A stretch of 64,000 bases of DNA from Acidimicrobiia bacterium (lineage in GTDB: Bacteria > Actinomycetota > Acidimicrobiia > Acidimicrobiales > Aldehydirespiratoraceae), in assembly GCA_024421095.1 (NCBI GenBank), contig JAHQYM010000001.1:14089-78088 (forward strand), in the 5' to 3' direction. The position numbers and the translations under genes are program-made. The stretch's first letter is position 1. Every line of letters starts with the position of its first letter. The notes under the pieces are model-generated. The model was not told where the DNA came from and ran no database searches. It saw only the letters and a program-made list of their open reading frames with translations. This document shows, one piece after another, positions 6,328-60,401 of this stretch.

Positions 6328-7530
6328 ATGGCACACATTGGCCAAAAACAGGCAAGTCTGTCGAGCACTCAAGCAAGACGGATTTGTCTAGCTGCCCAAG
6401 GCTTTAAAGGGCTCCGCCCAAACGGACGAGTTGACCGCCGCCACCTGCGTGCGGTCATGTCGAAGATCGGTTTGTTGCAGCTTGATTCGGTGCCGGTGGT
6501 GACGCGCACGCAATACATGTCATTGTTCTCACGCCTCGGCCCATACAGACCCGAACTGCTAGATGAGATTGCTTACCGTGACGACGAATGGTTCGAAGCT
6601 TGGAGCCATGAAGCGTCACTACTAGCGGTTCGTGACGAACCGTTGTTGCGTTGGCAAAAGCAACGGGCGCGCCGCGGGGAAACGTGGAGTCACCTCGCAG
6701 CGCTGGCCCGAAAAGACCCAAACTTCGTTGACGAAGTACTTGCACAGGTGCGTCACAAACCACTCACCGCAAAGGAGTTAGTTGACCCCCGCCAGCAAAG
6801 CGGCCAATGGTGGGGTGGCCGCTCGGAGGGATCGATTGCTTTGGACTGGCTCTTCCGAATCGGTGAGTTGGGTGTGCGTCGCCGTGCCGGTTTTCAAAAA
6901 GAATTCGACCTGTTAGAACGGATCGTCCCCAAAGACATATTGGCCATGCCGACACATTCTGAACCAGACGCGCAGCGCAGGTTGCTAATGCGTGCGGCAG
7001 CAAGCTTCGGAGTTGCCACAGCTTCTGACTTGATCGACTATTACCGCTTACCGAAAGTGCCCTGCAAAACTCGAATCGCTGAACTCGTGGAAGACGGTCG
7101 GCTTATTGAGGTTAACGTGCAGGGTTGGAACCGACCCGGGTTGCTTCACCCGCAAGCAGTTGCGGCTCGCTCAATCGATGTATGCACATTGTTGTCTCCG
7201 TTCGACCCGGTGGTGTGGTGCCGCCCGAGAGGATTGCGCCTCTTCGATTTCGATTACAAAATTGAGATCTACACGCCGGCTGCCAAACGGGTTTACGGCT
7301 ACTATGTTTTGCCTTTCTTGTTGGGCGATTCGATCGTTGCACGGGTTGATCTCAAGACCGACCGGCGTGCCGGTGTGTTGCTCGTACAGGGAGCCTTCAA
7401 AGAACCAGGCCACCCCCAAACCCAAGTGGCTGCAGGGTTACGTCACGCGCTCAACGACTTGACTCGGTTCGTCGGTTGCGAAACTTGGAAGGTCACCGGC
7501 ACCGCAGGCGACCTAATCAACGCACTCTAA
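6328..7530 (+). CDS. Winged-helix DNA glycosylase-like protein (YcaQ/AlkZ, DUF1006-type)
   Basis: About 400-aa ORF. The N-terminal QARRICLAAQGF...LLQLDSVPVV (Q-hydrophobic-D motif as in YcaQ) and the C-terminal YGYYVLPFL...VDLKTDR are typical of the family as I remember it. Confidence 0.7.
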   Translation: MAHIGQKQASLSSTQARRICLAAQGFKGLRPNGRVDRRHLRAVMSKIGLLQLDSVPVVTRTQYMSLFSRLGPYRPELLDEIAYRDDEWFEAWSHEASLLAVRDEPLLRWQKQRARRGETWSHLAALARKDPNFVDEVLAQVRHKPLTAKELVDPRQQSGQWWGGRSEGSIALDWLFRIGELGVRRRAGFQKEFDLLERIVPKDILAMPTHSEPDAQRRLLMRAAASFGVATASDLIDYYRLPKVPCKTRIAELVEDGRLIEVNVQGWNRPGLLHPQAVAARSIDVCTLLSPFDPVVWCRPRGLRLFDFDYKIEIYTPAAKRVYGYYVLPFLLGDSIVARVDLKTDRRAGVLLVQGAFKEPGHPQTQVAAGLRHALNDLTRFVGCETWKVTGTAGDLINAL

Positions 7531-9083
7531 AGCCGTTCGGTTTGCGCGCAGGCTCCAATACTATTGAGGTGCCAGTAACCGATTCGGGTAGTTTGCTTGA
7601 TGTGAATAACCAATCAATCGGGTACCACTGGCAACCGATCACCGACCTGTCTGAAGCCGACCTCGAAGCTGCGAGCACGGAACTGCCGGCATTGCAGAGC
7701 ACTTGGGAAGATGTCCGTGGACAGTTCGACAGCAGGCAACTTGACCGTTTCAATGAACGCTTGAAAAGGGAATGGGCCATCGAAACAGGGATAATCGAGC
7801 GCATCTACACACTCGACCATGGCACCACGCAACTATTGATAAAGCAAGGTATTGATGCGTCACTAATCGCCACGAATGCATCGGACCAACCCCCCGAGTT
7901 AGTGGCCGCAATGATCCAAGATCACGCCGCCACGGTGGACTGGCTATTCGATACCGTCACCGAGCAACGTCCCCTTAGCACTTCGTTTGTGAAACAACTG
8001 CACGCGTTGATGACACGTCAACAAAAGACTGCTAGCGGATTCGATTCACTTGGTCAACAACAAGGCATCAAGTTGCTGCATGGCACCTACAAAGAGTGGC
8101 CCAACAACCCCGTGCGCACCGACGGGAAGTTGCACCAATACTGTCCGCCTGAGCAGGTGACCGCCGAGATGGACCGCCTAATCGAATTGCACCAGAAGCA
8201 CCAGGCCACCAATGTAGCAACAGATGTGAGTGCTGCTTGGTTGCACCACCGTTTCACGCAGATTCATCCGTTCCAAGACGGTAACGGCAGGGTCGCCCGT
8301 GCCATCGCCTCAATTGTACTCATCCGCGCTCGATGGTTTCCGCTTGTTGTCACCCGAGACGACCGAGTGCGATACATAGAGGCACTTGTGCAGGCCGACG
8401 AAGGCAACTTGGCATCGCTCACACGCCTTGTAGCCAAACTCCAACGGAAACAACTTGTTCGTGCCCTGAGCATCGCCGAAGAGGTACAGACCCAAGATCA
8501 ACAACTCGAACAGATGCTAGAAATCATTGGCGACATGTTCAACGGCGAACCCAACCCAGCGCACACCGATCGCTTGGCGGCCCTAGATACCGCCAAACAT
8601 CTAAGAGAAATCTGCGGCACCTACTTTGAAGAAACTGCCACGAAACTCCAGTCGAGGCTTGGAGATTCGACCTCTCGTAAGGCTTGGAGCGAATTCGGTG
8701 TGGATGCCGATATCGAACGCCGTAGATGGAACCGTTACCAGATTGTACATACCGCCCAAGCGCTGGATTACTTTGCCAACACTCGAGACCATCACGAGTG
8801 GGTGCGACTCGCGATTATTACCGAGAACGGCCGTTCCGAAATCCTCACATCATTTCACGTCATAGGCACGCAATACCGTGGGTTGGTAGGAGCGTCAATG
8901 TGTTTCTACCGTCGCCAACAAGCCGACAACTTCGAACAACAAGTCATCGAATTGCAACCCGTGAGCAACGAACTCTTCCAAATCAACTACCGCGAATCTG
9001 CTGATTCCGTTAAACGCCGATTCATGGACTGGTTGGAGCAAAACCTAGTGTTAGGTCTCGATCAATGGCGCCGCGGCGAGTGA
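7476..9083 (+). CDS. Fic-domain protein with a roughly 200-aa uncharacterised C-terminal region
   Basis: HPFQDGNGRVARAIASIVL matches the Fic core HxFx(D/E)GNGRxxR. The first start, 7476, overlaps the upstream gene by 55 nt; GTG 7569 is an alternative start. Confidence 0.8.
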   Translation: MRNLEGHRHRRRPNQRTLKPFGLRAGSNTIEVPVTDSGSLLDVNNQSIGYHWQPITDLSEADLEAASTELPALQSTWEDVRGQFDSRQLDRFNERLKREWAIETGIIERIYTLDHGTTQLLIKQGIDASLIATNASDQPPELVAAMIQDHAATVDWLFDTVTEQRPLSTSFVKQLHALMTRQQKTASGFDSLGQQQGIKLLHGTYKEWPNNPVRTDGKLHQYCPPEQVTAEMDRLIELHQKHQATNVATDVSAAWLHHRFTQIHPFQDGNGRVARAIASIVLIRARWFPLVVTRDDRVRYIEALVQADEGNLASLTRLVAKLQRKQLVRALSIAEEVQTQDQQLEQMLEIIGDMFNGEPNPAHTDRLAALDTAKHLREICGTYFEETATKLQSRLGDSTSRKAWSEFGVDADIERRRWNRYQIVHTAQALDYFANTRDHHEWVRLAIITENGRSEILTSFHVIGTQYRGLVGASMCFYRRQQADNFEQQVIELQPVSNELFQINYRESADSVKRRFMDWLEQNLVLGLDQWRRGE

Positions 9084-9329
9084 TCAAGCCCACTGCGCGT
9101 ACGATGCTGGCGGAGGCGGGTTGTTGGGGCATTCGAGCACGGCCTACGGTAGCGGTTCGCCACCAACAATCTCAACGATGCCGGTAGTGTTGTCGCGTAG
9201 TAACCCTTCAATCTCAGCAATGGCGACGAAGTGTGTACGGGTGGTGCCGAGCCCGTGGCGAGTCGCGTCTGCCAACAACGCGTCGGACATGCGTTGCGGG
9301 ACTGTGCGGATGTCGTCGGGTCTGCGGTT

Positions 9330-9600
9330 GGGTTGCGTCTAACTTCGCGCGACAGATCTTGAGTTTTTTCAAGCAGCATCTGGCAGGGTGTGCGGTACTA
9401 GTTCAGGAGGGGAAACTCTATTCGTGGTTGCGACAGAGTGTGGTGTAGATGTGTTGTGCTGGTTTCCAGTTGTGGAGTTTGCGGGGCATTTGGTTGAGGG
9501 CATCTTGGATGAGCGCGAGGTGTGTGGAGTTTATGTTGAGGTTGGTGTCTTTGGGTAGTCAGCGTAGTCGCAGCCCGTTGGTTTGTTCGTTGATGGGTCG
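9330..9600 (-). mobile_element. IS30-family end remnant (terminal repeat plus last ~50 codons of the transposase, with an in-frame stop)
   Basis: Minus-strand translation ...RPINEQTNGLRLR*LPKDTNLN...MPRKLHNWKPAQHIY parallels the IS30-type C-terminus at 51947-52165. The terminal sequence GGGTTGCGTCTAACTTCGCGCGACAG at 9330 recurs inverted at 54363. Confidence 0.65.
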
Positions 9601-9653
9601 CAGGGCCCGCCTCAGAAATCGACTGGGCGACGCTCCGTATTCGAAGCGGCCCG

Positions 9654-10073
9654 CTACTCCGCGGGGTCGCGGAGCGCGATCAGGCGTGTCCGTGACGCCC
9701 AGTCTTGGATCGCGCCGTCGAAGGTCGCCAGTTTCATTCCAGTCCGCATGGCCGTGGCGACGATCAGTTGCTCCGCGGGGTCGCGATGAAACCCCGAATT
9801 CATCAGGAGGACCGACTCGACGGCAAGCTCACCGTCGATGGGTATCTCCAGCAGTCCAGACATCAGGCGTTCAACACGCCAGGTTGCTGGGTGGCAGCCG
9901 AGATCGATCCGTCTTTGGTGATGCAGCCGGGTCGTCTCCATGAATGTCACGGCTGAGACGGCGACCTCGCCGTTAACTAGGCCGGTCTCGATAGCCTGTT
10001 TGAACGACTCACCGATGTGTGGGTTGTCGGTCACCAACCGCAGCAGAACGTTGGTGTCCAAGAGAATGCTCAC
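9654..10073 (-). CDS. vapC: PIN-domain toxin, VapC family
   Basis: MSILLDTNVLLRL... and HRDPAEQLIVATA fit PIN acidic-residue motifs. 4-nt overlap with the upstream antitoxin ORF. Confidence 0.8.
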   Translation of the reverse strand: MSILLDTNVLLRLVTDNPHIGESFKQAIETGLVNGEVAVSAVTFMETTRLHHQRRIDLGCHPATWRVERLMSGLLEIPIDGELAVESVLLMNSGFHRDPAEQLIVATAMRTGMKLATFDGAIQDWASRTRLIALRDPAE

Positions 10074-10384
10074 TGATATCGCTCTGGGTTGAGCAGGTTG
10101 TCAGGGCGTTCGATCACGTCCCAGTCCTCCATTGGTATGGCGGGGTCGCTGTCGATGTCTGCCAGTATCTGAAGCTGGTCGACGCACGAACCGACGAGAT
10201 TGGGACGTTCCGTTCGTACTGGGCTGATTCGCACCACCGGGCGGCGGTGCTTCGTCACGATGATCTCGGTGCCGGTCTCATGCACCTCGTCCATCAGGCG
10301 CAGACAGTGCGTCTTGAACTCGCCCGCCGCCAAGACCCGCCCGTCAGGCCGGGAGTGTGTACTTTTTTTCGGTTCAGTGTCCAT
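10070..10384 (-). CDS. Phd/YefM-type antitoxin partner of VapC
   Basis: 104-aa ORF with AGEFKTHCLRLMDEVHETGTEIIVTKHRRPVVRISPV, typical of prevent-host-death antitoxins. Overlaps the vapC start. Confidence 0.7.
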   Translation of the reverse strand: MDTEPKKSTHSRPDGRVLAAGEFKTHCLRLMDEVHETGTEIIVTKHRRPVVRISPVRTERPNLVGSCVDQLQILADIDSDPAIPMEDWDVIERPDNLLNPERYQ

Positions 10385-16538: not shown

Positions 16539-17077
16539 ACAGTTCGAGACGGGATACTCGACCATGCTAGTTTGGCCTCAAAGCGACCGAAGAGCCACGA
16601 CAATCAACGAAGCCAACGCCACTAGTTGTTTCGGTTTCTTGATCATTCTAGATGCTCCTAGCACTCGGGGACAGTTACCAAACCAAGCATTACCGAACAA
16701 TCCGACGATTGTCAAGACAAAATCAGGATTCTCGAAAGTTTGTTCTAATCTGCCAATCGGGGCTGTGGTGTTTTTGTGCGCGAGCGCGAAAAAGACGAGC
16801 CTGAGCGGTCGGGTTACCATCCACCTGTCGGCGGGTGTGCCGCGTGGACTTCGGGATGCATCAAACAACGACGACCAGTGATCACGCGTTGGTCTTGTCG
16901 CTGCTACATGGTTGGATGATGGGTCAACTGCCCACCAATAGAGCTTGCCGTGGATACTCTTGGTGTGCGGCTTCGGTTCGGTTGCTGACTATTCGGCGGC
17001 CATTGTGGCCGATTTCTTAGAGCGCCGACGGAGCCCGCCGACCCTTGCCATCGGTGTCGGTCTCAATTTGCGACTAT

Positions 17078-24256: not shown

Positions 24257-25062
24257 TGACCGGCCCCAAGACCAACGAACGTGCTGGTACCCGAGCGACA
24301 GTCAAACACGTACGAGCCTCGGCTTCCAAAGCCCGAGAAGTACTAAACCTAATCCGCAACCAACCCTTCAGGCAAGCCGAGGAAATATTAGACTTTTCTG
24401 AGCGCGGTGTGAGCCAAGAAATCACCAAAGTACTCAATTCGGCTGTCGCCAACGCATTCCACAACGACCGGTTAGACCCCGAAGAACTATTTGTTTCAGC
24501 CTGCTACGCCGATGAAGGAATCACCTTGAAACGTTCTCGGCCGCGCGCCCGTGGCCGTGCAACGCCAATACTCAAGAGAACCTGCCACATCACGGTGATC
24601 TTAGACCGCTATGACGAAGACACACTTGAAGCGATGCAAAACCGCGCCGCGGCTGGGGGTGGCGCTTCAAGCAACGCGGCACAACAAAGGCGGCGCCGAG
24701 TGCAAAGAAGTCGCCAACGCCAACATGCGAGCGAGCCTGAGGTTGAAACTGCCGCCTCGCCTGAACCTGAGCCCGAGGCTACAGAGCAATCTGTGAACAC
24801 GACCGAGGCTGCGCTAGACAAAACAGCTGAGCCCGAAACGGCAACTGAGTCTGAAATGCCAACAGAGTCTGAAATGCCAACAGAGTCTGAAATGCCAACT
24901 GAGGCGCAGATGCCCACTGAGGCTGAAATGTCACCTGCGGCCGCAACATCCACTGATGCCGAGATGCCAACTGAGTCGGTGGGCGCAACAGCCACAGCCA
25001 CAGATAGCACTGCAACCGAAGACCAACACAAGCCCGCCAAAAGCAGCGGAGAGGAAACCTGA
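24256..25062 (+). CDS. rplV: 50S ribosomal protein L22 with a long acidic, repeat-containing C-terminal extension
   Basis: The L22 core ([21 protein letters not shown]...[23 protein letters not shown]) is followed by about 140 extra residues including ESEMPT repeats. Confidence 0.9.
24847..24972 (+). repeat. In-frame 18-bp tandem repeat (ESEMPT units) inside the rplV tail
   Basis: GAGTCTGAAATGCCAACA repeats perfectly or near-perfectly three times (24847-24900), followed by degenerate units GAGGCGCAGATGCCCACT, GAGGCTGAAATGTCACCT and GATGCCGAGATGCCAACT. Confidence 0.9.
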
Positions 25063-49651: not shown

Positions 49652-51593
<1,942 letters not shown>

Positions 51594-51614
51594 AGCCCTA
51601 ACGGCTTGTGTTGA

Positions 51615-51641
51615 GAGGCTCGGGTCACCAACCCGGGCCTC
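51615..51641 (+). terminator. Candidate stem-loop terminator after groEL
   Basis: GAGGCTCGGGT-cacca-ACCCGGGCCTC (11-bp stem including one G-U pair), 22 nt after the stop. The downstream T tract is weak (CTTG). Confidence 0.45.
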
Positions 51642-51946
51642 TTGCGCGTCTACCCACAATTTTTATTTTCAGAGTCGTTGGCGTTCGCCGCCGATATAGT
51701 TAGAAAGGTTAACAAACAAAAGGAGTGCCCTTTGTTCGTGCGTCATTTCAAAAAGTTAGGAGACTTACTTATGCCTAGTCCAACCGCACTTTCGGTCCAC
51801 AAACTGCGGGCAGAAACGACACAGACATGTCGGTTCGGGTTGTCTCGAGTCGTTGGTTCTGTGACGCTCGTTCTGGCATTGTTCGCATTCCTTTTGTCAC
51901 CGGCGAAGGTGGGCAAGCTCTAGCGGTGGTAACGTCAGAGTGTAGT

Positions 51947-52509
51947 CTAGATGTGTTGTGCTGGTTTCCAGTTGTGGAGTTTGCGGGGCACATGGTTGAG
52001 GGTGTTTTGGATGAGCGCGAGGTGGATAGGGTTGAGGTTGGTGCCTTTGGGTAGCCAGCGTCGTATCAGCCCGATGGTTTGTTCGTTGCTGGGTCGCTGC
52101 CACGGCGATAGCGGTTCGCAGAAGAACACTTCAAATTCGCAGTTGTGTTCGATGTGTGTCCGCAAGCCATTTCTGATCCTTGGTCCCAGGTGAGGGTTTT
52201 GACTAGTTCAGCGGGTCGTTATCGCAGCGCTGCGTTGACCGCGGCGGCTACATTGTTGGCGCTGTATCCGGCGGGTAACGCCACGATCAAGGTGTGGCGG
52301 CTGACGCGTTCAACGCGTCTCGCGACGGCACTAGCGTTTTTGGTGCCGATCACCAAGTCGCCTTCCCAGTAGCCAGCTTCGCTGCGGTAGTCTGCTTTTC
52401 GGGGGCGCAGCGTCAAAGGCTTGTAATCCCCCAGTACGCTGCGTTTAGCGGTATCGCAGCGGCTGCGATGTTTACGGCAGCGGTGACCGCGCCGCACGTT
52501 ACACGCCAC
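51947..52509 (-). pseudogene. IS30-family DDE transposase, C-terminal two-thirds, frameshifted
   Basis: Two ORF fragments in different frames: ...RPRKADYRSEAGYWEGDLVIGTKNASAV...VERVSRHTLIV... and ...FCEPLSPWQRPSNEQTIGLIRRWLPKGTNL...HVPRKLHNWKPAQHI. The WEGDL and SPWQR-NE motifs are IS30 hallmarks. Confidence 0.75.
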
Positions 52510-52528
52510 ATTGAGATACGATTAAAGG

Positions 52529-53926
52529 GTGATTCGCGTGTGTGCGCTTGTTCGGGTATTGAACGAGGTCAAGCGGGCAGTGGTCGGTGGTTCGCGTGGT
52601 TTGCTGGTGGCGTTGCTGGGCTTGGTGGTGGCGTTGGTGACGGCTCAGTCTGTTGGTGCCGAGGGCGGTTTCGTTGACGTTGAACAAGACCGGTACTACG
52701 CCGATGCGGTTGCGTGGTCGGCGGACAACAACATTACGGGGATTATCGGCGACCGTTTCGAGCCCGAGCGTCCCACAACCCGCGGAGAAGCTGCCTTGTG
52801 GTTGTGGCGGATGAACGGCCAGCCAAGGGGAGCACCTCATAGCTTCACTGATGTGGGCGTGATTCACGCGGATGCGGTGGCGTGGCTGTTCAACGGGGGT
52901 ATCACGACAGGCACTTCGACCACCACGTTCTCACCCCGAAAGGTATTGACGCGTGGCGAGATCGCTGCCCTCTTGTGGCGGATTGCCGGGAAGCCAAGCG
53001 CGCAATCCGGGAGTTTCACCGATGTATTTGCGGAGTGGCAGCAGACTCCTGTGGCTTGGCTGGCGGACACGGGCATTTCTACCGGCACATCGCCGACGAC
53101 ATTCTCGCCAGATCAAGACTTGACACGAGCTCAGCTGATCACGTTCCTTTATCGATACGACAAGCGACACCCGATAACAACGGCGATTCCCGAGCAGACT
53201 GCGACGACCGACGAAGAGCCTCCGCCTCCGCCTCCGCCTCCGCCTCCGCCTCCGCCGCCTCCGCCGCCTCCGCCTCCGCCGCCTCCGCCTCCGCCTCCGC
53301 CTCCGCCTCCGCCTCCGCCTCCGCCTCCGCCGTTGCCGTCGGCCGCCGACATCGCCGCTGAAACCGATCGCGCCGCGAGTGCCGCCGAGGCGAGCGCAGC
53401 GGCAGCCGCGGATGCTGCCCGTGCTGCTAGGACGATCGCGGACACACACCCGGCCGCTGTGGCCGATGCAGCCGATGCAGAGGCTGCAGCGGACGAGTCC
53501 AATATCAGCAGCCAGCTCTCTCGCTACCACTCCGACATAGCGGCGGATCATAAGACAGTCGGTTCCGATCGGCATTGTCATCCTCGAGCGAACAATCTGT
53601 GTCACGCCCACTCGAACTCCGAGCCCTATGCACGTTCTGCCGTCGGTGCGCAGAGCGCTGCCGAAGCCCACGCGCACGCTGCGGATGCACATGCCGCGCA
53701 TGCGCGTGCCGCACTGAAGGCGGGAACAATCGACGCAGAGACCACGGATCGCGTTGTGAAGGCAGCGGCATCGGTTCGGACTCATGCCGAGGCCGCAAAA
53801 GCGGCGGCCGAGGCTGCGTGGGATGCGGTCCACCAACTCGACACGCGGGCCAGCGCAGGACACTCTGTCGACGCGCACGCTGCGGCCGCGATGGCCGCGG
53901 CGGCGCGCGCCGCGGCCGTGTTCTAG
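52529..53926 (+). CDS. Secreted protein with three SLH-like domains, a 38-residue poly-proline spacer and an Ala/His-rich C-terminal region
   Basis: Signal-like RGLLVALLGLVVALVTAQSVGA. Three repeats of F(V/T)DV...AV(A)W....GI(T)TG....F.P....TRG(E/A)...L.R. PPP...P x38, then an Ala-rich tail. Start uncertain (GTG 52529 or a downstream TTG). Confidence 0.7.
   Translation: MIRVCALVRVLNEVKRAVVGGSRGLLVALLGLVVALVTAQSVGAEGGFVDVEQDRYYADAVAWSADNNITGIIGDRFEPERPTTRGEAALWLWRMNGQPRGAPHSFTDVGVIHADAVAWLFNGGITTGTSTTTFSPRKVLTRGEIAALLWRIAGKPSAQSGSFTDVFAEWQQTPVAWLADTGISTGTSPTTFSPDQDLTRAQLITFLYRYDKRHPITTAIPEQTATTDEEPPPPPPPPPPPPPPPPPPPPPPPPPPPPPPPPPPPPPPLPSAADIAAETDRAASAAEASAAAAADAARAARTIADTHPAAVADAADAEAAADESNISSQLSRYHSDIAADHKTVGSDRHCHPRANNLCHAHSNSEPYARSAVGAQSAAEAHAHAADAHAAHARAALKAGTIDAETTDRVVKAAASVRTHAEAAKAAAEAAWDAVHQLDTRASAGHSVDAHAAAAMAAAARAAAVF
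53219..53332 (+). repeat. Near-perfect CCTCCG/CCGCCT hexanucleotide tandem repeat encoding 38 consecutive prolines
   Basis: 114 nt composed only of CCT and CCG codons, in frame with the ORF starting at 52529. Confidence 0.95.
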
Positions 53927-54177
53927 GCGAGTCCCCGAAATGCGGCCGTGGTCGAGAGGTTGAGCGACACCGTCGGCTGCGACACGCCACATTGTTCAGA
54001 GTTGTCACCGAGTCATTATTGCCCACATTTCGCCGAAGAGGCTGAACCGGAGGGTTCCAGCGGTTTGATGTGGACGGCCACGATATCGAGGTCGTTGTAC
54101 TACCGATGGAAGACCTCCGAAGTGTGATGTTGCAGCATCCGCAGAGAAATGTCTCGTTCAAGGGGCAGACCGACGGC

Positions 54178-54273
54178 CTAGGCGGAGATCTGCCCACAAA
54201 GGATCCGTACCCAGAAATCGTACTTCTGCTCCTCAGTCAAAAACTTCTTGTAGCTTCTTTGCTGAGAACCCAT
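54178..54273 (-). pseudogene. IS30-family transposase N-terminal (HTH) fragment ending in a premature stop
   Basis: AGGAGG then ATG 54273: MGSQQRSYKKFLTEEQKYDFWVRILCGQISA*. Compare the E. coli IS30 N-terminus MRRTFTAEEKASVFELWKNG (from memory). Lies ~50 nt inside the 54363 terminus. Confidence 0.5.
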
Positions 54274-54363
54274 CGGGTGCAGCCTCCTTTTCTAAGACCA
54301 CCAATCCCGCCCGATATAGCGTAGAAAAACTCAGAATCTGTCGCGCGAAGTCAGACGCAACCC

Positions 54364-54436
54364 ACTCCTTGGCTGTTTCGGCCTGAGACCTGCCCTCTAA
54401 AACAACTGACAAAATAACTGCGCGACGTTTCGACAT
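54364..54436 (-). pseudogene. 25-codon N-terminal HTH fragment of a different (IS481/IS3-like) transposase, cut by the IS30 terminus
   Basis: MSKRRAVILSVVLEGRSQAETAKEW then runs straight into the IS30-type terminal repeat. The N-terminal pattern is typical of actinobacterial integrase-type transposases as I remember them. Confidence 0.4.
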
Positions 54437-54679
54437 GACACCACAATCGTCGCTCCCGAACCTTGCACATGTCCTGACACCCAACACAAACTAATCACCG
54501 ACCATTATGGCAGGCATGTCACAACCACCGATGGCGGCCGCCGACCTTGGGAATGTAGTCAAGTTAATTTCTTGCAGTGGGGTTGTCTTTGTTGCTTATT
54601 TAATGGATAGTGTTACTTCACGCTTCGGCGTAGCCCCTCCCCCCAGAAAACAAAACTGCATTTCAAAGGACAACGCTCG

Positions 54680-55342
54680 GTGGGCATGGGCAGGGCGGAA
54701 CCAATTACACGATGGATCGATTCGGTTGCGGACCGACTCGGGGTTACTATCTGGGGCCTTGTCGCGGGCGTAGCCGCGGTTGCTGCTGCGGCGTTCGGCG
54801 GATGGTGGGCTTTAGCTTCCCCGCAAACCCCGCAAGTTGAAGAACTATTGCCGAGCGTAGCAACCGCCGAAGGCGTGCCAGCGCAACCCACAATAACCTC
54901 CCTCGCGGCACAGCGGATTATTGTTCATGTTGATGGGGCCGTGTTGTTCCCCGGCGTTCACGAACTCGCCCCAGGCGCTCGGGTACACGATGCGATTGAC
55001 GCTGCCGCAGGTCTGGCTGCCGATGCCGACCGCTCACGGCTGAATTTGGCAGCACCGCTAAATGACGGGCAGCGTGTTTGGGTTCCGAGCATTGGTGAGG
55101 CAGAACCGGTACCGCTGAATCCCGGTGACTTCGGCGGCTCAAAAGTTGACGCGTTAGTGAACCTCAACACGGCTGACCTCGCTGCGTTAGAAACTCTGCC
55201 TGGGGTTGGGCCAAGTATTGCTGCGGCGATTATTGGTTACCGCGGCGAACACGGTGCCTTCAGTCGTGTCGAGTCCCTGCTTGAGGTGCCGGGTATTGGT
55301 GAAGCCAAATTGGAGCAGTTAGCTCCCTTGGTGACTGTGTGA
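54680..55342 (+). CDS. comEA: Competence protein ComEA (membrane anchor plus helix-hairpin-helix DNA-binding domain)
   Basis: TM segment then VNLNTADLAALETLPGVGPSIAAAIIGYRGEHGAFSRVESLLEVPGIGEAKLEQL. Start uncertain. Confidence 0.85.
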   Translation: MGMGRAEPITRWIDSVADRLGVTIWGLVAGVAAVAAAAFGGWWALASPQTPQVEELLPSVATAEGVPAQPTITSLAAQRIIVHVDGAVLFPGVHELAPGARVHDAIDAAAGLAADADRSRLNLAAPLNDGQRVWVPSIGEAEPVPLNPGDFGGSKVDALVNLNTADLAALETLPGVGPSIAAAIIGYRGEHGAFSRVESLLEVPGIGEAKLEQLAPLVTV

Positions 55343-57093
55343 ACGCGCATCTAGTGGCTTTGGCTGCGGCTTTGGGGGCTTGGTGGATGGTGGCGGTACC
55401 GCTGCCGGGTTTGGTTGCGTTGGCTTTGCTGGCTGCTTGGCGCAGACACATGGCTATTGTGCTGTTGTTGGTTTTCGTCGTTGTGGGTAGCCGCGGGGAT
55501 GCGTCATTGCGGGCGCTTGACCCACCGGTCGACGAAATGTTTTCTGGTTGGGTGACTTTGCTTGACGACCCTCGGCCAGTGGGTTTGGTGGGCGCGGTCG
55601 TCACCGTGCGTGATGGCTCGCGGCGGCTCACCGCGATAGCACACGGCGCCGTTGCGGCACGACTTGATGATGCGCTGGCCGGAGAACGGTTGTTTTTGCT
55701 CGGTCGATTGAAACCTCTTAGCGCTGACGACACCTATTCGCGTTGGCGTCATGTGGTCGGCAGGTTGACAGTCACGGCTGTTGATGGTCAACAAAGCGGG
55801 TCACCAGTCAACCGATTCGCAAACACGGTTCGCCGCACTTTAGTCAATGGCGCGGATTCGTTGAATCGTGCTGACAAAGCGATCTTTTTGGGCATGGTCA
55901 TCGGCGATGATCGAGGTCAAACTGCTGTTGTTGCCGATAATTTTCGTGCTGCTGGTTTGGGGCATTTGCTGGTGGTCTCGGGTCAAAACGTGGCCTTTGT
56001 GCTTGCGGTTGTGGCACCTCTCGCAGGTCGTTTCCGTCCGGCTTTTAGGGCCTTGTGGCTCTTTGCTACTTTGTTGATTTTTGCTGTCATAACTAGGTTT
56101 GAGCCTTCGGTGTTGCGTGCCGTAGCCATGGCTGGTGCTGGTGTTGGTAGCTCTGTTATGGGTTCCCCGATTGATGGCAAACGTGCCTTGTCTTGTGCTG
56201 TGGCGGCGTTACTGTTGATCGACCCGTTTCTGGTTCGGTTAGTGGCTTTTCAACTTTCGGTGGCCGCAACTGCGGGGATCGTCTGGTGGTCGGCACCTTT
56301 GGGAGAGCGTTTAGTGGGGCCCGCTTGGTTGCGGGTGCCGTTTGCGACTACGGCGGCTGCACAACTAGCGGTGTCGCCATTGTTGTTGGGTTTATTTGGG
56401 GCGTTGCCGTTGGCCTCGCTGCCAGCCAATTTGTTGGCCGGGCCGGTATCGGGGGCGGTGATGGTTTGGGGTTGCACGGGTGGTTTATTCGCTGGGGTGA
56501 TGGGTGGTGTTGTGGCTGAGATTGCACATTTCCCTTCCCGAGCGATGCTCTGGTGGATTGGTGGGGTGGCTTCACGGGCCGCTTTAGGCCCTCAAGCAAC
56601 GTTGGGTCTAGTTTCTTTGTTGTTGCTTGGTAGCGCGGCGTTGTTGGCGATGGTAAGGGTGCGTCCGCTGGCTATTCTGGCCGGGGCGGTTGCCTCACTC
56701 GTGGCAGTCGCGGCGCTGCTTGCGGCACCGACGCTGACTGTGGGGGAACACCGTTTAGTTGGTAAATCGCGGGCGATCGTTGCCCAAAACGGCGATCTTT
56801 TGCTGGTGCTTGACAACCCACCTAAACGGGCGCTGATCGAGTCTTTACGGGTGAGTGGTGCCAAAAAACCGAAGCTAGTTGTGGCACTTGACGGCGACCG
56901 GTTTGATGCTGAAGCTGTTCTGTCTCTCGTTGAGCGCTACGGGCCTCTGGCGATTGCGGCACCGCCGATGCATCGGGTGCCGGGCGCACGAACGGTGCGG
57001 GTTGGGCAGGTGGTTGAGGTGGACGACTTAGTGTTGCGTTTTGAGAAGGTGCAGCCCCGGTTGCGTTTGAGCGTGGAACGCGAACCGCCATGA
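55339..57093 (+). CDS. comEC: ComEC/Rec2 family DNA internalisation channel protein
   Basis: 584-aa polytopic ORF with AAGLGHLLVVSGQNV (competence-domain motif). Overlaps the comEA stop (GTGA). Confidence 0.85.
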   Translation: MNAHLVALAAALGAWWMVAVPLPGLVALALLAAWRRHMAIVLLLVFVVVGSRGDASLRALDPPVDEMFSGWVTLLDDPRPVGLVGAVVTVRDGSRRLTAIAHGAVAARLDDALAGERLFLLGRLKPLSADDTYSRWRHVVGRLTVTAVDGQQSGSPVNRFANTVRRTLVNGADSLNRADKAIFLGMVIGDDRGQTAVVADNFRAAGLGHLLVVSGQNVAFVLAVVAPLAGRFRPAFRALWLFATLLIFAVITRFEPSVLRAVAMAGAGVGSSVMGSPIDGKRALSCAVAALLLIDPFLVRLVAFQLSVAATAGIVWWSAPLGERLVGPAWLRVPFATTAAAQLAVSPLLLGLFGALPLASLPANLLAGPVSGAVMVWGCTGGLFAGVMGGVVAEIAHFPSRAMLWWIGGVASRAALGPQATLGLVSLLLLGSAALLAMVRVRPLAILAGAVASLVAVAALLAAPTLTVGEHRLVGKSRAIVAQNGDLLLVLDNPPKRALIESLRVSGAKKPKLVVALDGDRFDAEAVLSLVERYGPLAIAAPPMHRVPGARTVRVGQVVEVDDLVLRFEKVQPRLRLSVEREPP

Positions 57094-58262: not shown

Positions 58263-60401
58263 TCAATGCGCTTGCGGTGGCCCGATACCAGTGGCTTTGG
58301 CGATTCCCTCCACAAACAACTTGCGGTCGCCAATATCAACCGATTTCTCTTCCCAATGCGTTTCGAGTTCGTATTCGGGCGCGCCGGCAGCAACCATCGC
58401 CTCAGCAATTGCCGAACGAGCCGAAGCCATTGCGGCTTCTTTAGCAGTTTCCAGATCCACGAAAGGTTCAGGTTCGCGTCCCCCATGCACCCGAAAAAGC
58501 CCTCGCCTCGGCGACGAAACCGTCACCCGCCGACTTAACCGCACCCTGCCGACAGCGGCTCCGATCGCGTTTGCCACATCAGCGTGTTCGGGTATCACAA
58601 CCTCAGCGTCAAGCAAGCGGCCAATCGCTGGGTAATAGGTAGCGGCGGGCGCACCAAGGCCCACCAAAGGTACGCCCAAACCAGCCAGCAATCTAGTGGT
58701 GCGCGATTTGGCGGTGTGCGATTTGGCGGTGTGCGATTTGGCGGTGTGCGGATTGGCGGTGCGCATCTGGGCGGTTCGCGACTGGGCATCAAGCGCGGCG
58801 TTCACGATCTCGCTAGACGCAGCACGAGCGGGTAGTCCGTCACTTACCAAGGCCATTGCGAGCAGGTGCTCCGCCGATAACCGAACCAACTTGGCGACCA
58901 CCACCTCAGCAAATTCTTTCGGAGTGGCCGCAATCGGTTTGCCGCGATGGTCGCAACGCCGAGCCCAAACCTTCGCAGCAGCGTGAGCAACGGCGGGGTC
59001 ATGCGTGGTTTGAGTGCCGAGCACATGGGCAGCATCAGTGGGCGTGAATGCCGACAACCGAACCAGCCCACGAGCAGCTAAGCGTCGCATCGCCAACGCT
59101 TCTCGACTGCCGTTGACGACCGTGTCCGCGGCAACGAACCGACGTTCCCCGGCAGACATACTCGCGTCCCCGTGAGCAACATCGGTTGCGGGTTGCGAGT
59201 CGGTGATTTTCGCCAACAACCGCTCCTCGATGGGGTCGACCGGTGCAGGAGCGGCTCGCGTTGTTGGTTGCACGAACACTGCACTCCACTCTTGGGGCAA
59301 GGTGTAAGCATCAAGTTGGCGCTTCAACGCTGCCATCAACGGTTCTTGATGATGCTGCACTGCTACCACCAGCGGAACCACCCGCCTCGGACCGACCAGC
59401 AGATCAGCCCCACGAGCGCGATCCGCTAGCAACACTTCACTGTCGCCACCCAACCCATGAGTGGCCATCGCCACGGCTTCGACCATAGTTTGATGTCCAC
59501 CAACCGTTGCGCCCTTAGCATCGAAATCGAAACTCCCGTCGCGCAGCACGGCGATATCGGTGGTGGTGCCGCCAATATCCGCGATCAGCGCATTTTGGGT
59601 GCCCACGAGATGTGCCGCTCCGATAAGGCTTGCAGCCGGGCCAGACAAGATCGTCTCCACCGGGCGTTCGGTCACAAAGTCTGCCGATACCAGCGAGCCG
59701 TTACCACGCACCACCATTATCGGTGCGGTAATCCCTTGCTTTGCCAACACGTCAGCGGTGGTGGTCACTAACTCATTGATGAGAGCGATCATGCGGGCGT
59801 TCAGCAGGGCCGTGACCGACCGTTTCGGGCCGTTTAATGCGTCTGCGAGTTCGTGGCTGCAAGTGACCGGCAAACCGGTTAGCTCACGAATTATTTCTCG
59901 GGCGGCAAGTTCATGGTCGGCATTGCGCACACTGAACTGAGAGGTTACTGCGAACCCGTCAACGCCGGGAGCTACCTCGGCCACTGCTGCGGCAAGCGCC
60001 TCCCGATCAAGGGGCTCGGCTTCGCTGCCATGGGATGTGTGGCCACCGTTGACCATCACCAAAGAGTTGCCCAGTAAGGCTTCTTGCAAACCGCCTCGGT
60101 CAAGCACTGCCGTCTCGAAACCGATCATCACTAGAGCTGCGGGCCGGCCTTTACCTTCCACTAGGGCGTTGGTTGCCAGGGTCGTCGACAGCGACACGAA
60201 ACGGATCTCTTGCGGGTCGATTGAGGCAGCGGCGAGAACGCTCTTGATTGCCTCGGTGATGCCGACCGCTAGGTCATCGTGGGTTGTTGGTGCTTTGGCT
60301 TTGGTCAACAACATGTTTGGGTGTTCGCTATAGAGAACCGCGTCGGTGTAAGTTCCGCCAGTATCAACACCGAGAACCCACCGCCTATTTGAAGCAGACA
60401 T
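58263..60401 (-). CDS. Hydantoinase/oxoprolinase (HyuA-type, ASKHA) family protein
   Basis: VLGVDTGGTYTDAVLY N-terminus, ADIGGTTTDIAVL. 712 aa, with no adjacent HyuB-type partner. Contains an HTAKS repeat insert. Confidence 0.75.
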   Translation of the reverse strand: MSASNRRWVLGVDTGGTYTDAVLYSEHPNMLLTKAKAPTTHDDLAVGITEAIKSVLAAASIDPQEIRFVSLSTTLATNALVEGKGRPAALVMIGFETAVLDRGGLQEALLGNSLVMVNGGHTSHGSEAEPLDREALAAAVAEVAPGVDGFAVTSQFSVRNADHELAAREIIRELTGLPVTCSHELADALNGPKRSVTALLNARMIALINELVTTTADVLAKQGITAPIMVVRGNGSLVSADFVTERPVETILSGPAASLIGAAHLVGTQNALIADIGGTTTDIAVLRDGSFDFDAKGATVGGHQTMVEAVAMATHGLGGDSEVLLADRARGADLLVGPRRVVPLVVAVQHHQEPLMAALKRQLDAYTLPQEWSAVFVQPTTRAAPAPVDPIEERLLAKITDSQPATDVAHGDASMSAGERRFVAADTVVNGSREALAMRRLAARGLVRLSAFTPTDAAHVLGTQTTHDPAVAHAAAKVWARRCDHRGKPIAATPKEFAEVVVAKLVRLSAEHLLAMALVSDGLPARAASSEIVNAALDAQSRTAQMRTANPHTAKSHTAKSHTAKSRTTRLLAGLGVPLVGLGAPAATYYPAIGRLLDAEVVIPEHADVANAIGAAVGRVRLSRRVTVSSPRRGLFRVHGGREPEPFVDLETAKEAAMASARSAIAEAMVAAGAPEYELETHWEEKSVDIGDRKLFVEGIAKATGIGPPQAH
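58699..58775. repeat. In-frame 15-bp tandem repeat inside the hydantoinase-family gene
   Basis: GTGCGATTTGGCGGT at 58716-58730 and 58731-58745 with degenerate flanking units. Encodes (HTAKS)n on the minus strand. Confidence 0.9.

What the first reader, a model, noticed from the sequence alone, without database searches (positions are those of the whole stretch)
51837..54363. Surface-protein gene nested between the two ends of an IS30-family element
Seen, point 1: minus-strand fragments of an IS30-type transposase lie at both extremities. The N-terminal HTH fragment with its own AGGAGG-ATG is at 54273-54178. The DDE region and C-terminus are at 52509-51947, frameshifted near 52165-52219.

Seen, point 2: outside each fragment is a related terminal sequence in inverted orientation. 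GGGTTGTCTCGAGTCG is at 51837, and the reverse complement of 54324-54363 reads GGGTTGCGTCTGACTTCGCGCGACAGATTCTGAG. The latter is near-identical to the end of the third remnant at 9330 (GGGTTGCGTCTAACTTCGCGCGACAGATCTTGAG).

Seen, point 3: the ~0.5 kb of transposase that should connect the fragments is missing. In its place, on the opposite strand, sits the 1.4-kb SLH/poly-Pro gene, whose start is only 20 nt from the transposase remnant.

Seen, point 4: the outer flank at 54364 is a truncated transposase of a different family.

Inference: one possibility is a single IS30 copy whose interior was replaced by a cargo gene. That would be a non-autonomous, potentially trans-mobilisable unit 2.5 kb long. 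The other possibility is two co-oriented truncated copies flanking the gene. I could not find matching target-site duplications (flanks ...GGTTC and ACTCC...).
Basis: partly seen in the sequence, partly recalled or inferred. Interest (0 to 1): 0.6.

Follow-up and report, generated by a model that had tools for sequence, protein, structure and literature searches.

The report
Surface-protein gene amid insertion-sequence debris
A 2.9-kb lineage-specific insertion between groEL and comEA holds one intact cell-wall-anchored surface-protein gene surrounded by broken pieces of four insertion-sequence copies from three kinds of element; this is ordinary mobile-element wreckage, not a gene packaged inside a single IS30 element.

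Summary
Window 52497-51912 (minus strand) is the last ~590 nt of an IS30-family element, pseudogenised, with its right inverted repeat. The supposed IS30 N-terminus and terminal repeat at 54364-54184 are instead the left end of a different, IS3-like element, which has 45 matching loci in Acidimicrobiia genomes. The sequence at 51837 is a chance match. A genuine IS30 left end of 56 nt lies further out at 54542-54487. It is interrupted by the 5' end of a third transposase gene (54486-54365), which the IS3-like element in turn interrupts.

Sister-lineage contigs, 96-97% identical in the flanks, have groEL and comEA 231 nt apart. The whole block 51684-54542 (2,859 nt) is therefore an insertion. 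The comEA-side junction is a canonical IS30 junction. The groEL-side junction lies 228 nt beyond the IS30 right tip, with no repeat and 4 nt lost. The flanking triplets differ (GTC versus CAC), whereas six of eight intact relatives carry perfect 3-bp duplications.

The two IS30 ends therefore most likely come from two copies. The best reading is a decayed, immobilised IS30-associated insertion, comparable to Tn6330 decay. No second copy of the unit was found. Interest is low.

The parts
51684..51908 (+). Unassigned DNA at the groEL-side end of the inserted block. It carries an SD (AGGAG) and an ATG at 51771 that open an ORF with a signal-peptide-like N-terminus (MPSPTALSVHKLRAETTQTCRFGLSRVVGSVTLVLALFAFLLSPAKV). 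IS30 copy B cuts this ORF.
   Evidence: The segment is absent from the empty-site contigs, and the block boundary is 51683|51684. It has no match in any fetched locus. GC is 0.49 against 0.56 for the window.
51909..51911 (-). Triplet flanking the IS30-B right tip (CAC on the minus strand), the presumed target-site copy of copy B.
   Evidence: Intact relatives carry 3-bp duplications of CAC, GTC or GAC immediately outside the same tip.
51912..52497 (-). IS30-family copy B: the last ~590 nt (element nt ~478-1066). It includes the right inverted repeat 51912-51937 (22/26 to consensus) and the transposase pseudogene codons ~134-325. Defects are a stop at 52219-52221, a frameshift near 52165-52219 and stops in the last 10 codons.
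   Evidence: NCBIfam transpos_IS30 hits. blastn 80-81% over ~590 nt to L001/L002, and tblastn to P0003. Right-end alignment.
52498..52528 (.). Junction DNA between the truncated IS30-B and the SLH gene start. It holds a possible SD, AAAGGGTGA.
   Evidence: No homology to IS30 or to SLH-gene relatives. Homology to P0122's gene starts at 52569.
52529..53926 (+). Intact gene for a secreted, SLH-anchored surface protein. It comprises a signal peptide, three SLH domains, a ~40-residue poly-Pro linker and a 196-aa His/Cys/Ala-rich helical C-terminal module. Alternative starts are at 52538 and 52559.
   Evidence: Pfam SLH E=3.7e-20. The N-terminal half is 65-67% identical to P0121/P0122, and the C-terminal module is 77% identical to P0125 and 60% to P0184. 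AF2 model pLDDT 91.6. The sequence is identical in other assemblies.
53927..54183 (.). Unassigned 257 nt between the SLH stop codon and the IS3-like stub.
   Evidence: No match to IS3-like OrfA/OrfB, to IS30, to any fetched locus or to the native spacer.
54184..54364 (-). Left end (nt 1-181) of an IS3-like element. It comprises the terminal repeat TGGGTTGCGTCTGACTTCGCGCGACAG, the 5'UTR with AGGAGG, and OrfA codons 1-30 followed by a stop.
   Evidence: 45 loci in Acidimicrobiia MAGs. Intact ~1.52-kb copies with OrfA, OrfB in the -1 frame, and an inverted repeat at the far end. 90-92% identity to L022/L018, with homology ending at 54184. OrfB hits transpos_IS3 at 106 bits.
54365..54486 (-). 5' end of a third transposase gene (N-terminal HTH: ...CGVMSKRRAVILSVVLEGRSQAETAKE). 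The IS3-like insertion cuts it.
   Evidence: phmmer against 1.84 billion representatives: P0361 and P0362, 70-73% identity over 33 aa, E=5e-7. P0361 has HTH_28/HTH_23 domains and weak IS630/IS481/IS3 N-terminal hits. No similarity to IS30 N-termini.
54487..54542 (-). IS30-family copy A: the first 56 nt, including the left inverted repeat 54542-54517 (24/26 to consensus).
   Evidence: 89% identity to the L002 left end. The tip was defined from 8 intact copies. The block boundary against the empty site is exactly at this tip.
54543..54545 (-). Target triplet of copy A (GTC on the minus strand). It is part of the native spacer.
   Evidence: It is present in the empty-site contigs (GGCG ACTG GAC CTTGGG). 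GTC is the commonest duplication among intact relatives.
9329..9601 (.). Related remnant elsewhere in the window. An 80-nt IS3-like left-end stub (9329-9408, + strand) abuts the right end and last ~60 codons of another IS30 copy (9409-9601, minus strand).
16973..17015 (-). Scrap of an IS30 left end (5'UTR).
   Evidence: blastn 81-86% to the L001/L002 left ends.

Best explanation
Window 51684-54542 is a 2,859-bp lineage-specific insertion in the groEL-comEA spacer. It is a mosaic of one intact passenger gene and the debris of four insertion-sequence copies. It is not one IS30 with cargo.

Shown:
- An IS30-family copy (A) inserted canonically at a GAC/GTC triplet next to comEA.
- A second IS landed in nt 57 of copy A, and an IS3-like element landed in that one, so three left ends are stacked in the same orientation.
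- The IS30 3' portion on the other side of the SLH gene (copy B) carries its own right repeat, its own flanking triplet (CAC) and 225 nt of foreign flank.
- The groEL-side junction is illegitimate: no IS end, no duplication, and 4 nt of spacer lost (7 nt counting the expected target-site copy).

Inferred:
- The SLH gene arrived as passenger DNA associated with IS30 copies, as an IS30-bounded, compound-transposon-like segment comparable to ISApl1-mcr-1-ISApl1 (Tn6330).
- Ordinary deletions then removed the inner parts of copies A and B, the rest of the two nested IS, and the outermost groEL-side end together with its target duplication. This left an immobilised block.

The gene itself looks functional. 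It has a signal peptide, three SLH domains that would tether it non-covalently to cell-wall polymer, a rigid poly-Pro spacer and a conserved helical His/Cys module displayed outward. Its promoter is unknown; candidates are read-through from groESL or a start within the IS30-B remnant.
For: Empty site. Four contigs from different samples (L062, L072, L073, L074), 96-97.4% identical in the flanks, have groEL-231 nt-comEA. Breakpoints fall at window 51683|54543 with ACTG between them. The filled allele is 99.8-100% identical in at least 6 independent assemblies, so it is not an assembly artefact.

IS30 anatomy. Eight intact relatives define tips, 26-bp repeats and a length of 1065-1068 bp. Six of the eight have perfect 3-bp duplications (CAC, GTC or GAC). 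The window's IRL tip coincides with the block boundary and adjoins GTC. The IRR tip adjoins CAC and lies 228 nt inside the block.

Other elements. The IS3-like identity of 54364-54184 rests. The third transposase N-terminus rests.

The gene. Its intactness and modular homology are shown.

Literature analogue. Decay of an IS30-family compound transposon by IS loss is described in PMC5821093.
Against: No intact compound transposon, donor locus or second copy of the unit was found, so the transposon stage is inferred rather than observed. The model needs at least three separate deletions plus loss of an outer IS30 end, of which no trace remains at 51684. Two of eight intact relatives also lack matching triplets, so the GTC/CAC mismatch alone is not decisive. 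Co-orientation of copies A and B has a 50% chance expectation.
Confidence: 0.5

Rival explanations
1. In-situ substitution. IS30 copy A, with its two nested IS, sat alone in the spacer. Later, one double-illegitimate recombination event replaced everything from IS3-like nt 182 to 4 nt beyond copy A's right end. Possible routes are break repair with captured filler DNA, or homology-facilitated illegitimate recombination of imported DNA. The replacement was a ~2.5-kb fragment from elsewhere that happened to contain the SLH gene next to a truncated IS30 copy B.
For: Both inner junctions (54183|54184 and 51683|51684) lack any IS end or repeat. Copy B carries foreign flank and its own CAC triplet. 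The canonical IRL junction needs only a simple IS30 insertion.
Against: It requires a rare event type and gives no role to the co-orientation of the two IS30 parts. No donor was found. The donor fragment still needs its own earlier deletion to bring IS30-B nt 478 within 32 nt of the gene.
Confidence: 0.25
2. A single IS30 copy inserted here and its interior (nt 57-477) was replaced by the SLH gene. This gave a non-autonomous unit bounded by IRL 54542 and IRR 51912 that an IS30 transposase could move in trans.
For: IRL and IRR are present in the correct inverted orientation, 2.63 kb apart, and match consensus at 24/26 and 22/26. The missing IS30 segment maps exactly to where the gene sits.
Against: The flank triplets differ at 2 of 3 positions (GTC versus CAC). 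The IRR is followed by 225 nt of non-spacer DNA rather than the spacer, so at least one more replacement placed precisely at the IRR tip would be needed. There is no second copy. The nested IS pile shows that copy A was already dead.
Confidence: 0.12
3. The SLH gene is ancestral at this locus, IS copies arrived on either side, and the sister lineage lost the whole region by deletion.
For: Polarity cannot be set with an outgroup, because the next relatives have a different gene upstream of comEA (L063-L065).
Against: One deletion endpoint would have to coincide to the base with the IS30 IRL tip while removing the IS itself. No close orthologue of the gene exists in any relative; the best match is 67% over half the protein.
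Confidence: 0.05

Closest known systems
Tn6330 (ISApl1-mcr-1-ISApl1) and its decayed derivatives; ISApl1 is an IS30-family element (Snesrud, McGann, Chandler 2018, PMC5821093)
   Same: A ~2.6-kb passenger segment is bracketed by co-oriented IS30-family sequences. Decay proceeds by deletions that remove all or part of the flanking IS and sometimes the target duplications. The resulting derivatives are non-transposable. Comparison with empty sites defines the insertion.
   Different: No intact two-IS form and no other insertion sites are known here. The cargo is a surface-protein gene in an uncultured Acidimicrobiia lineage, not a resistance gene. The duplication is 3 bp rather than 2 bp. One outer junction is not an IS end at all. 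One IS30 copy was killed by nested insertions of two other IS.
IS30 family insertion sequences (NCBIfam NF033563; 1.0-1.25 kb, one DDE transposase with N-terminal HTH, 20-30-bp terminal repeats, 2-3-bp duplications, from my knowledge of ISfinder descriptions)
   Same: Intact relatives (L066-L071) are 1065-1068 bp with 26-bp repeats, 3-bp duplications and a 324-325-aa transposase scoring 248 bits. The window fragments are 80-89% identical to them at the DNA level.
   Different: The window holds only a 56-nt left end and a 586-nt pseudogenised right part, most likely from two copies.
IS3-family elements (two ORFs, programmed -1 frameshift, TG...CA ends)
   Same: The element whose left end is at 54364-54184 has a 109-aa OrfA with HTH and leucine-zipper-like tail, OrfB in the -1 frame with rve/rve_3 domains, terminal inverted repeats starting with TG, and a length of ~1.52 kb.
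   Different: OrfB scores 106 bits, below NCBIfam's 160-bit cut-off, and also hits IS481 at 83 bits. Frameshifting and duplications were not tested.
Nested IS 'graveyards' and IS-bounded genomic islets
   Same: Successive insertions of one IS into another, truncations, and lineage-specific presence.
   Different: Nothing essential differs. This is a typical example.

Membership tests
IS30 family (fragments 51912-52497 and 54487-54542) | DDE transposase matching the IS30 profile | tested here: met
   The two ORF pieces hit NF033563 at 56.7 and 62.7 bits (E=2.8e-15 and 4.3e-17). Each is below the 80-bit whole-protein cut-off because it is a fragment. The closest intact relative, P0003, scores 248 bits. 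Identity to relatives is 61-78%.
IS30 family (fragments 51912-52497 and 54487-54542) | Terminal inverted repeats of 20-30 bp at the element tips | tested here: met
   The 26-bp repeats were defined from 8 intact copies. The window IRL matches at 24/26 (54542-54517) and the IRR at 22/26 (51912-51937).
   GTC lies outside the IRL and CAC outside the IRR. Six of eight intact relatives have perfect 3-bp duplications.
   The IRL tip coincides with one boundary (54542|54543). The other boundary is at 51683|51684, 228 nt beyond the IRR tip, with 4 nt of spacer missing.
   A junction-specific scan of JGI metagenome contigs re-found only this locus. All assemblies carrying the unit have it at the same site. 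The genome-contig collection was not scanned for the junction.
Compound (composite) transposon bounded by two IS30 copies (Tn6330-like) | Two IS copies flanking passenger DNA, with outer ends flanked by one target duplication | tested here: inconclusive
   Parts of two co-oriented copies flank the gene. Both are truncated, the outer IRR is not at the block edge, and no duplication is present. This is compatible only as a heavily decayed derivative.
IS3 family (stub 54184-54364) | OrfA/OrfB in the 0/-1 frames and a DDE (rve) OrfB matching the IS3 profile | tested here: inconclusive
   The organisation is seen in L009, L016, L023, L026, L028 and L032. The IS3 profile is the best hit at 106 bits but is below the 160-bit cut-off, and IS481 scores 83 bits. 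rve and rve_3 pass Pfam thresholds.
IS3 family (stub 54184-54364) | Terminal inverted repeats ending 5'-TG...CA-3' and a 3-4-bp duplication | tested here: inconclusive
   The left tip is TG(T/G)GTTGCGTC. A right-end inverted copy lies ~1.52 kb away. The duplications and the exact right tip were not examined.
SLH-domain cell-surface proteins | N-terminal signal peptide followed by three SLH domains | tested here: met
   Pfam PF00395 at 72 bits against a 20.8 cut-off, three stretches. A hydrophobic signal-like N-terminus aligns with those of P0121 and P0122.

The most novel reading that the evidence does not exclude
The block is the immobilised relic of an IS30-family compound transposon that moved a surface-protein gene, not a resistance gene, within an uncultured Acidimicrobiia population. 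The segment between IRL 54542 and IRR 51912 might still be mobilisable in trans by an intact IS30 copy elsewhere in the genome. That would make IS30-driven shuffling of modular SLH surface proteins a source of cell-surface variation between strains.
Probability: 0.12. Interest if true: 0.4.

Novelty: new member of a known kind. Interest (0 to 1): 0.2.

Why it matters
The significance is mostly local. The locus shows how two lineages whose flanking sequence here is 96-97% identical differ by one cell-surface protein, and that the difference arose through insertion-sequence activity. It also gives clean definitions of two IS types common in Acidimicrobiia genomes, a 1,065-bp IS30-family element and a ~1.52-kb IS3-like element. 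It is a cautionary example too: short terminal-repeat look-alikes and generic HTH N-termini cannot assign an IS family without intact reference copies. It opens no new mechanistic question.

Tried and rejected
(1) I treated 51837 as a degenerate terminal repeat. This was rejected by the nhmmer profile and the shuffle test.

(2) I treated 54487-54365 as a diverged IS30 N-terminus. This was rejected. It has no similarity to 120 IS30-family proteins, and it has a significant match to a different HTH transposase N-terminus.

(3) I first placed the IS30 left tip at 54551 (CCCAAGG). The empty site and eight intact copies corrected it to 54542.

(4) A 10-nt repeat, GAGTCGTTGG (51672 and 51847), looked like a duplicated target. 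It is not significant, because 102 of 500 shuffles do as well.

(5) I looked for a cryptic IS30 end at 51684. By eye I saw no convincing similarity to the IRL or IRR, and I ran no formal test.

(6) I searched for the donor of the unassigned segments. Local blast against all fetched loci found nothing. A protein-pattern scan of metagenome contigs with the 51768-51920 peptide also found nothing.

(7) The promoter and terminator scan of 51500-54750 found nothing above shuffle expectation.

(8) P0121's contig could not be retrieved.

(9) A fold search of the C-terminal module against the PDB gave no hit with E<=0.001.
Full report
**Context.** The finding lies between groES-groEL (49652-51593) and comEA-comEC (54680-57093), all on the + strand. 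The closest database relatives of the flanking proteins are annotated as Acidimicrobiia MAGs.

**What is at 51947-52509.** The two minus-strand ORFs match the NCBIfam IS30 transposase profile at positions 96-182 and 206-267 of 267, with E=2.8e-15 and 4.3e-17. A conceptual join of the two retrieves 324-325-aa IS30-family transposases at 73-76% identity. Six-frame translation shows an in-frame stop, a frameshift and further stops near the C-terminus. At the DNA level, 51908-52496 is 80-81% identical to the 3' ~590 nt of intact elements in L001 and L002.

**What is at 54178-54363.** Intact IS30 relatives begin MAQRLCFDERTRIEAM..., not MGSQQRSYKKFLTEEQ....
- A scan of one genome per species for the core of the '54363 terminal sequence' gave 45 loci, nearly all in Acidimicrobiia MAGs. 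Many sit 30-95 nt from contig ends and point outwards, as expected for a repeated element's terminus.
- In complete copies the repeat is followed ~85 nt later by AGGAGG-ATG and a 109-113-aa OrfA with an HTH and a leucine-zipper-like end (LRGKxGWG).
- An OrfB follows in the -1 frame with a DDE domain, and an inverted copy of the terminus lies ~1.52 kb away.
- OrfB scores best against the IS3 profile (106 bits, below the curated cut-off of 160). It scores next against IS481 (83 bits). rve and rve_3 pass Pfam thresholds.
- The window matches this element from its tip (54364) to nt 181 (54184), at 90-92% identity to copies in L018 and L022. Similarity then stops abruptly.

The near-identical sequence at 9330 is another stub of the same element, 80 nt long. 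It abuts the right end of another IS30 remnant at 9409-9601.

**The 51837 sequence.** A profile built from 31 left ends of the IS3-like element finds 9330 (E=2.7e-21) and 54363 (E=1.2e-19), but nothing near 51837 even at E<=10 with filters off. The best local alignment of 51821-51911 to the 84-nt left end is the hexamer GGGTTG, which scores below the mean of 1000 shuffles. It is a chance match.

**The real IS30 ends.** blastn with intact elements showed a 56-57-nt match (89% to L002) at 54487-54543, just outside the IS3-like stub. Eight intact copies (L001, L002, L066-L071) define the element:
- length 1065-1068 bp;
- IRL GGCGGCCTCCATCGGTGGTTGCGACA;
- right end ...TGTCGCAACCACCGATAGAGCTTGCC, whose repeat overlaps the stop codon;
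- in six of the eight, perfect 3-bp duplications (CAC, GTC, GTC, GTC, CAC, GAC).

In the window the IRL tip is 54542 (24/26 to consensus) and the IRR tip is 51912 (22/26 to consensus).

**The segment 54486-54365.** This stretch lies between the IS30 left end and the IS3-like tip, and it is not IS30. It has no similarity to 120 IS30-family proteins. Its translation matches the N-terminus of HTH-type transposase-like proteins (P0361 and P0362, 70-73% identity over 33 aa, E=5e-7; HTH_28/HTH_23; weak IS630/IS481/IS3 N-terminal hits). Reading inward from comEA, three IS left ends are therefore stacked in the same orientation, each cut by the next: IS30 nt 1-56, then a third IS 5' end, then IS3-like nt 1-181.

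**The gene.** 52529-53926 encodes a protein with a signal-like N-terminus and three SLH domains (Pfam 72 bits).
- The SLH region is 65-67% identical to SLH proteins of other Acidimicrobiia, which carry different C-terminal parts.
- A ~40-residue poly-Pro tract follows.
- The 196-aa C-terminal module is 77% identical to the C-terminus of P0125, which is anchored by CW_binding_2 repeats instead. It is 60% identical to the N-terminal part of P0184.
- That module has invariant His and Cys positions (DIAADH...SD.HCHPR....CH.H..SEPYARS). AlphaFold models it with pLDDT 91.6 as five long helices, as called by DSSP, plus a small hairpin. It has no PDB match at E<=0.001.

The gene is uninterrupted while all surrounding IS sequences are broken. 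I infer that it is functional.

**Is the gene native here?** It is not.
- Exact-protein look-ups recovered the same arrangement, 99.8-100% identical over 6.5-8.3 kb, in independent assemblies from several samples (L052, L053, L055, L075; partial in L054, L059, L061, L076, L078, L081).
- A sister lineage (ComEA 96% identical, flanks 96.1-97.9% identical) has groEL and comEA separated by 231 nt in four contigs from different samples (L062, L072, L073, L074).
- Breakpoints are window 51683|51684 and 54542|54543. The empty allele reads ...GTCGTTGGCG ACTG GACCTTGGG....

The 2,859-nt block therefore replaces ACTG. The comEA-side boundary falls exactly at the IS30 IRL tip, next to the triplet GAC (GTC on the element's strand). 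GTC is the commonest duplicated triplet among intact relatives. This is a canonical IS30 junction.

The groEL-side boundary is not canonical. The IS30 IRR tip (51912) is followed by CAC and then 225 nt that are neither spacer nor any known element. That 225-nt stretch contains an SD and an ATG (51771) that open a signal-peptide-like ORF, which the IS30 cuts. The stretch then joins the spacer with no repeat. The expected GAC copy and ACTG are both missing.

**Interpretation.** The IRL and IRR bracket the gene in the correct orientation, but they do not behave as the two ends of one insertion:
- the triplets differ;
- the IRR carries its own foreign flank;
- the block edge is elsewhere.

I conclude that two IS30 copies are involved, A at 54542-54487 and B at 52497-51912.

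The most economical history uses only event types documented for IS30-family compound transposons, namely transposition followed by deletions that remove IS copies and sometimes their duplications (PMC5821093). In that history, an IS30-bounded segment carrying the SLH gene entered the spacer through copy A's IRL. It was then eroded by deletions, and copy A was hit by two further IS. I cannot exclude that copy A sat alone and a foreign fragment later replaced its 3' part by illegitimate recombination (rival, 0.25). The single-IS30-with-cargo model needs an extra replacement placed exactly at the IRR tip, so I rate it at 0.12. An ancestral SLH gene with loss in the sister lineage would need a deletion ending to the base at an IS tip while removing the IS, so I rate it at 0.05.

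**Mobility.** No second site was found. A junction-specific scan of JGI metagenome contigs returned only the same locus. All assemblies with the unit have it between groEL and comEA. There is no intact IS30 in the window. The unit should be regarded as immobilised, and residual trans-mobilisation through the two repeats is untested.

**Verdict.** This is a real, lineage-specific insertion. It is correctly flagged as IS-associated, but its key parts were misassigned. It is an ordinary example of nested IS decay around a passenger gene.

Noticed in passing
window 9329-9601 (and 7476-10384): An 80-nt left-end stub of the IS3-like element abuts the right end of an IS30 remnant, with the junction right after the stub's AGGAGG Shine-Dalgarno box. 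So the two IS types hit each other in both directions in this genome, here and at 54364. The neighbouring ORFs at 7476-10384 looked to me like a Fic-type protein and a toxin-antitoxin pair, but this rests on reading their sequences only and no family search was run.
   Followed up: partly
window 16973-17015: A 43-nt scrap of an IS30 left end (5'UTR), 81-86% identical to L001/L002. This is a fourth IS30 trace in the window.
   Followed up: partly
L004, L015, L029, L031, L035, L045; L040:6600-6650: Many genomes hold solo stubs of the IS3-like left end, 55-90 nt long, followed by unrelated DNA. L040 has a ~60-nt miniature in which the two terminal repeats sit back to back (GTGTTGCGTCTGA...TCAGACGCAACAC), which is MITE-like. 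This may be a non-autonomous family, or the end may be a hotspot for truncation.
   Followed up: no
L001:2919-3000, L002, L066-L071 (IS30 5'UTR): In intact IS30 relatives the IRL contains CCTCCATCGG, and its complement CCGATGGAGG overlaps the Shine-Dalgarno box just before the ATG. This is a potential hairpin that would hide the ribosome-binding site in read-through transcripts. It was not folded or tested.
   Followed up: no
window 53336-53926 (SLH protein C-terminal module): A conserved 196-aa His/Cys/Ala-rich module (HCHPR....CH.H motif) is shared by proteins with different wall anchors (SLH here, CW_binding_2 in P0125) and sits at the N-terminal side in P0184. The confident AlphaFold model (pLDDT 91.6) shows long helices plus a hairpin. 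It has no Pfam family and no PDB fold match.
   Followed up: partly
window 53219-53335: The poly-Pro tract (CCTCCG/CCGCCT repeats, GC 0.80) varies in length. The L052 alignment shows 3 gap openings over 50000-56500, and its product is called at 459 aa against 462 aa in L053 and L055. Contigs L054 and L059 end near or in this tract (at window 53310 and 53250).
   Followed up: partly
L002:3975-4060: Two IS30 copies lie tail to tail, with right ends ~25 nt apart. L001 and L002 are the two intact copies without matching 3-bp flanks, which suggests recombination or insertion next to an existing end.
   Followed up: no
window 24824-24967 and 58688-58762: Tandem repeats of 18 nt (6 copies) and 15 nt (4 copies) were reported by the repeat finder. 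They were not examined.
   Followed up: no
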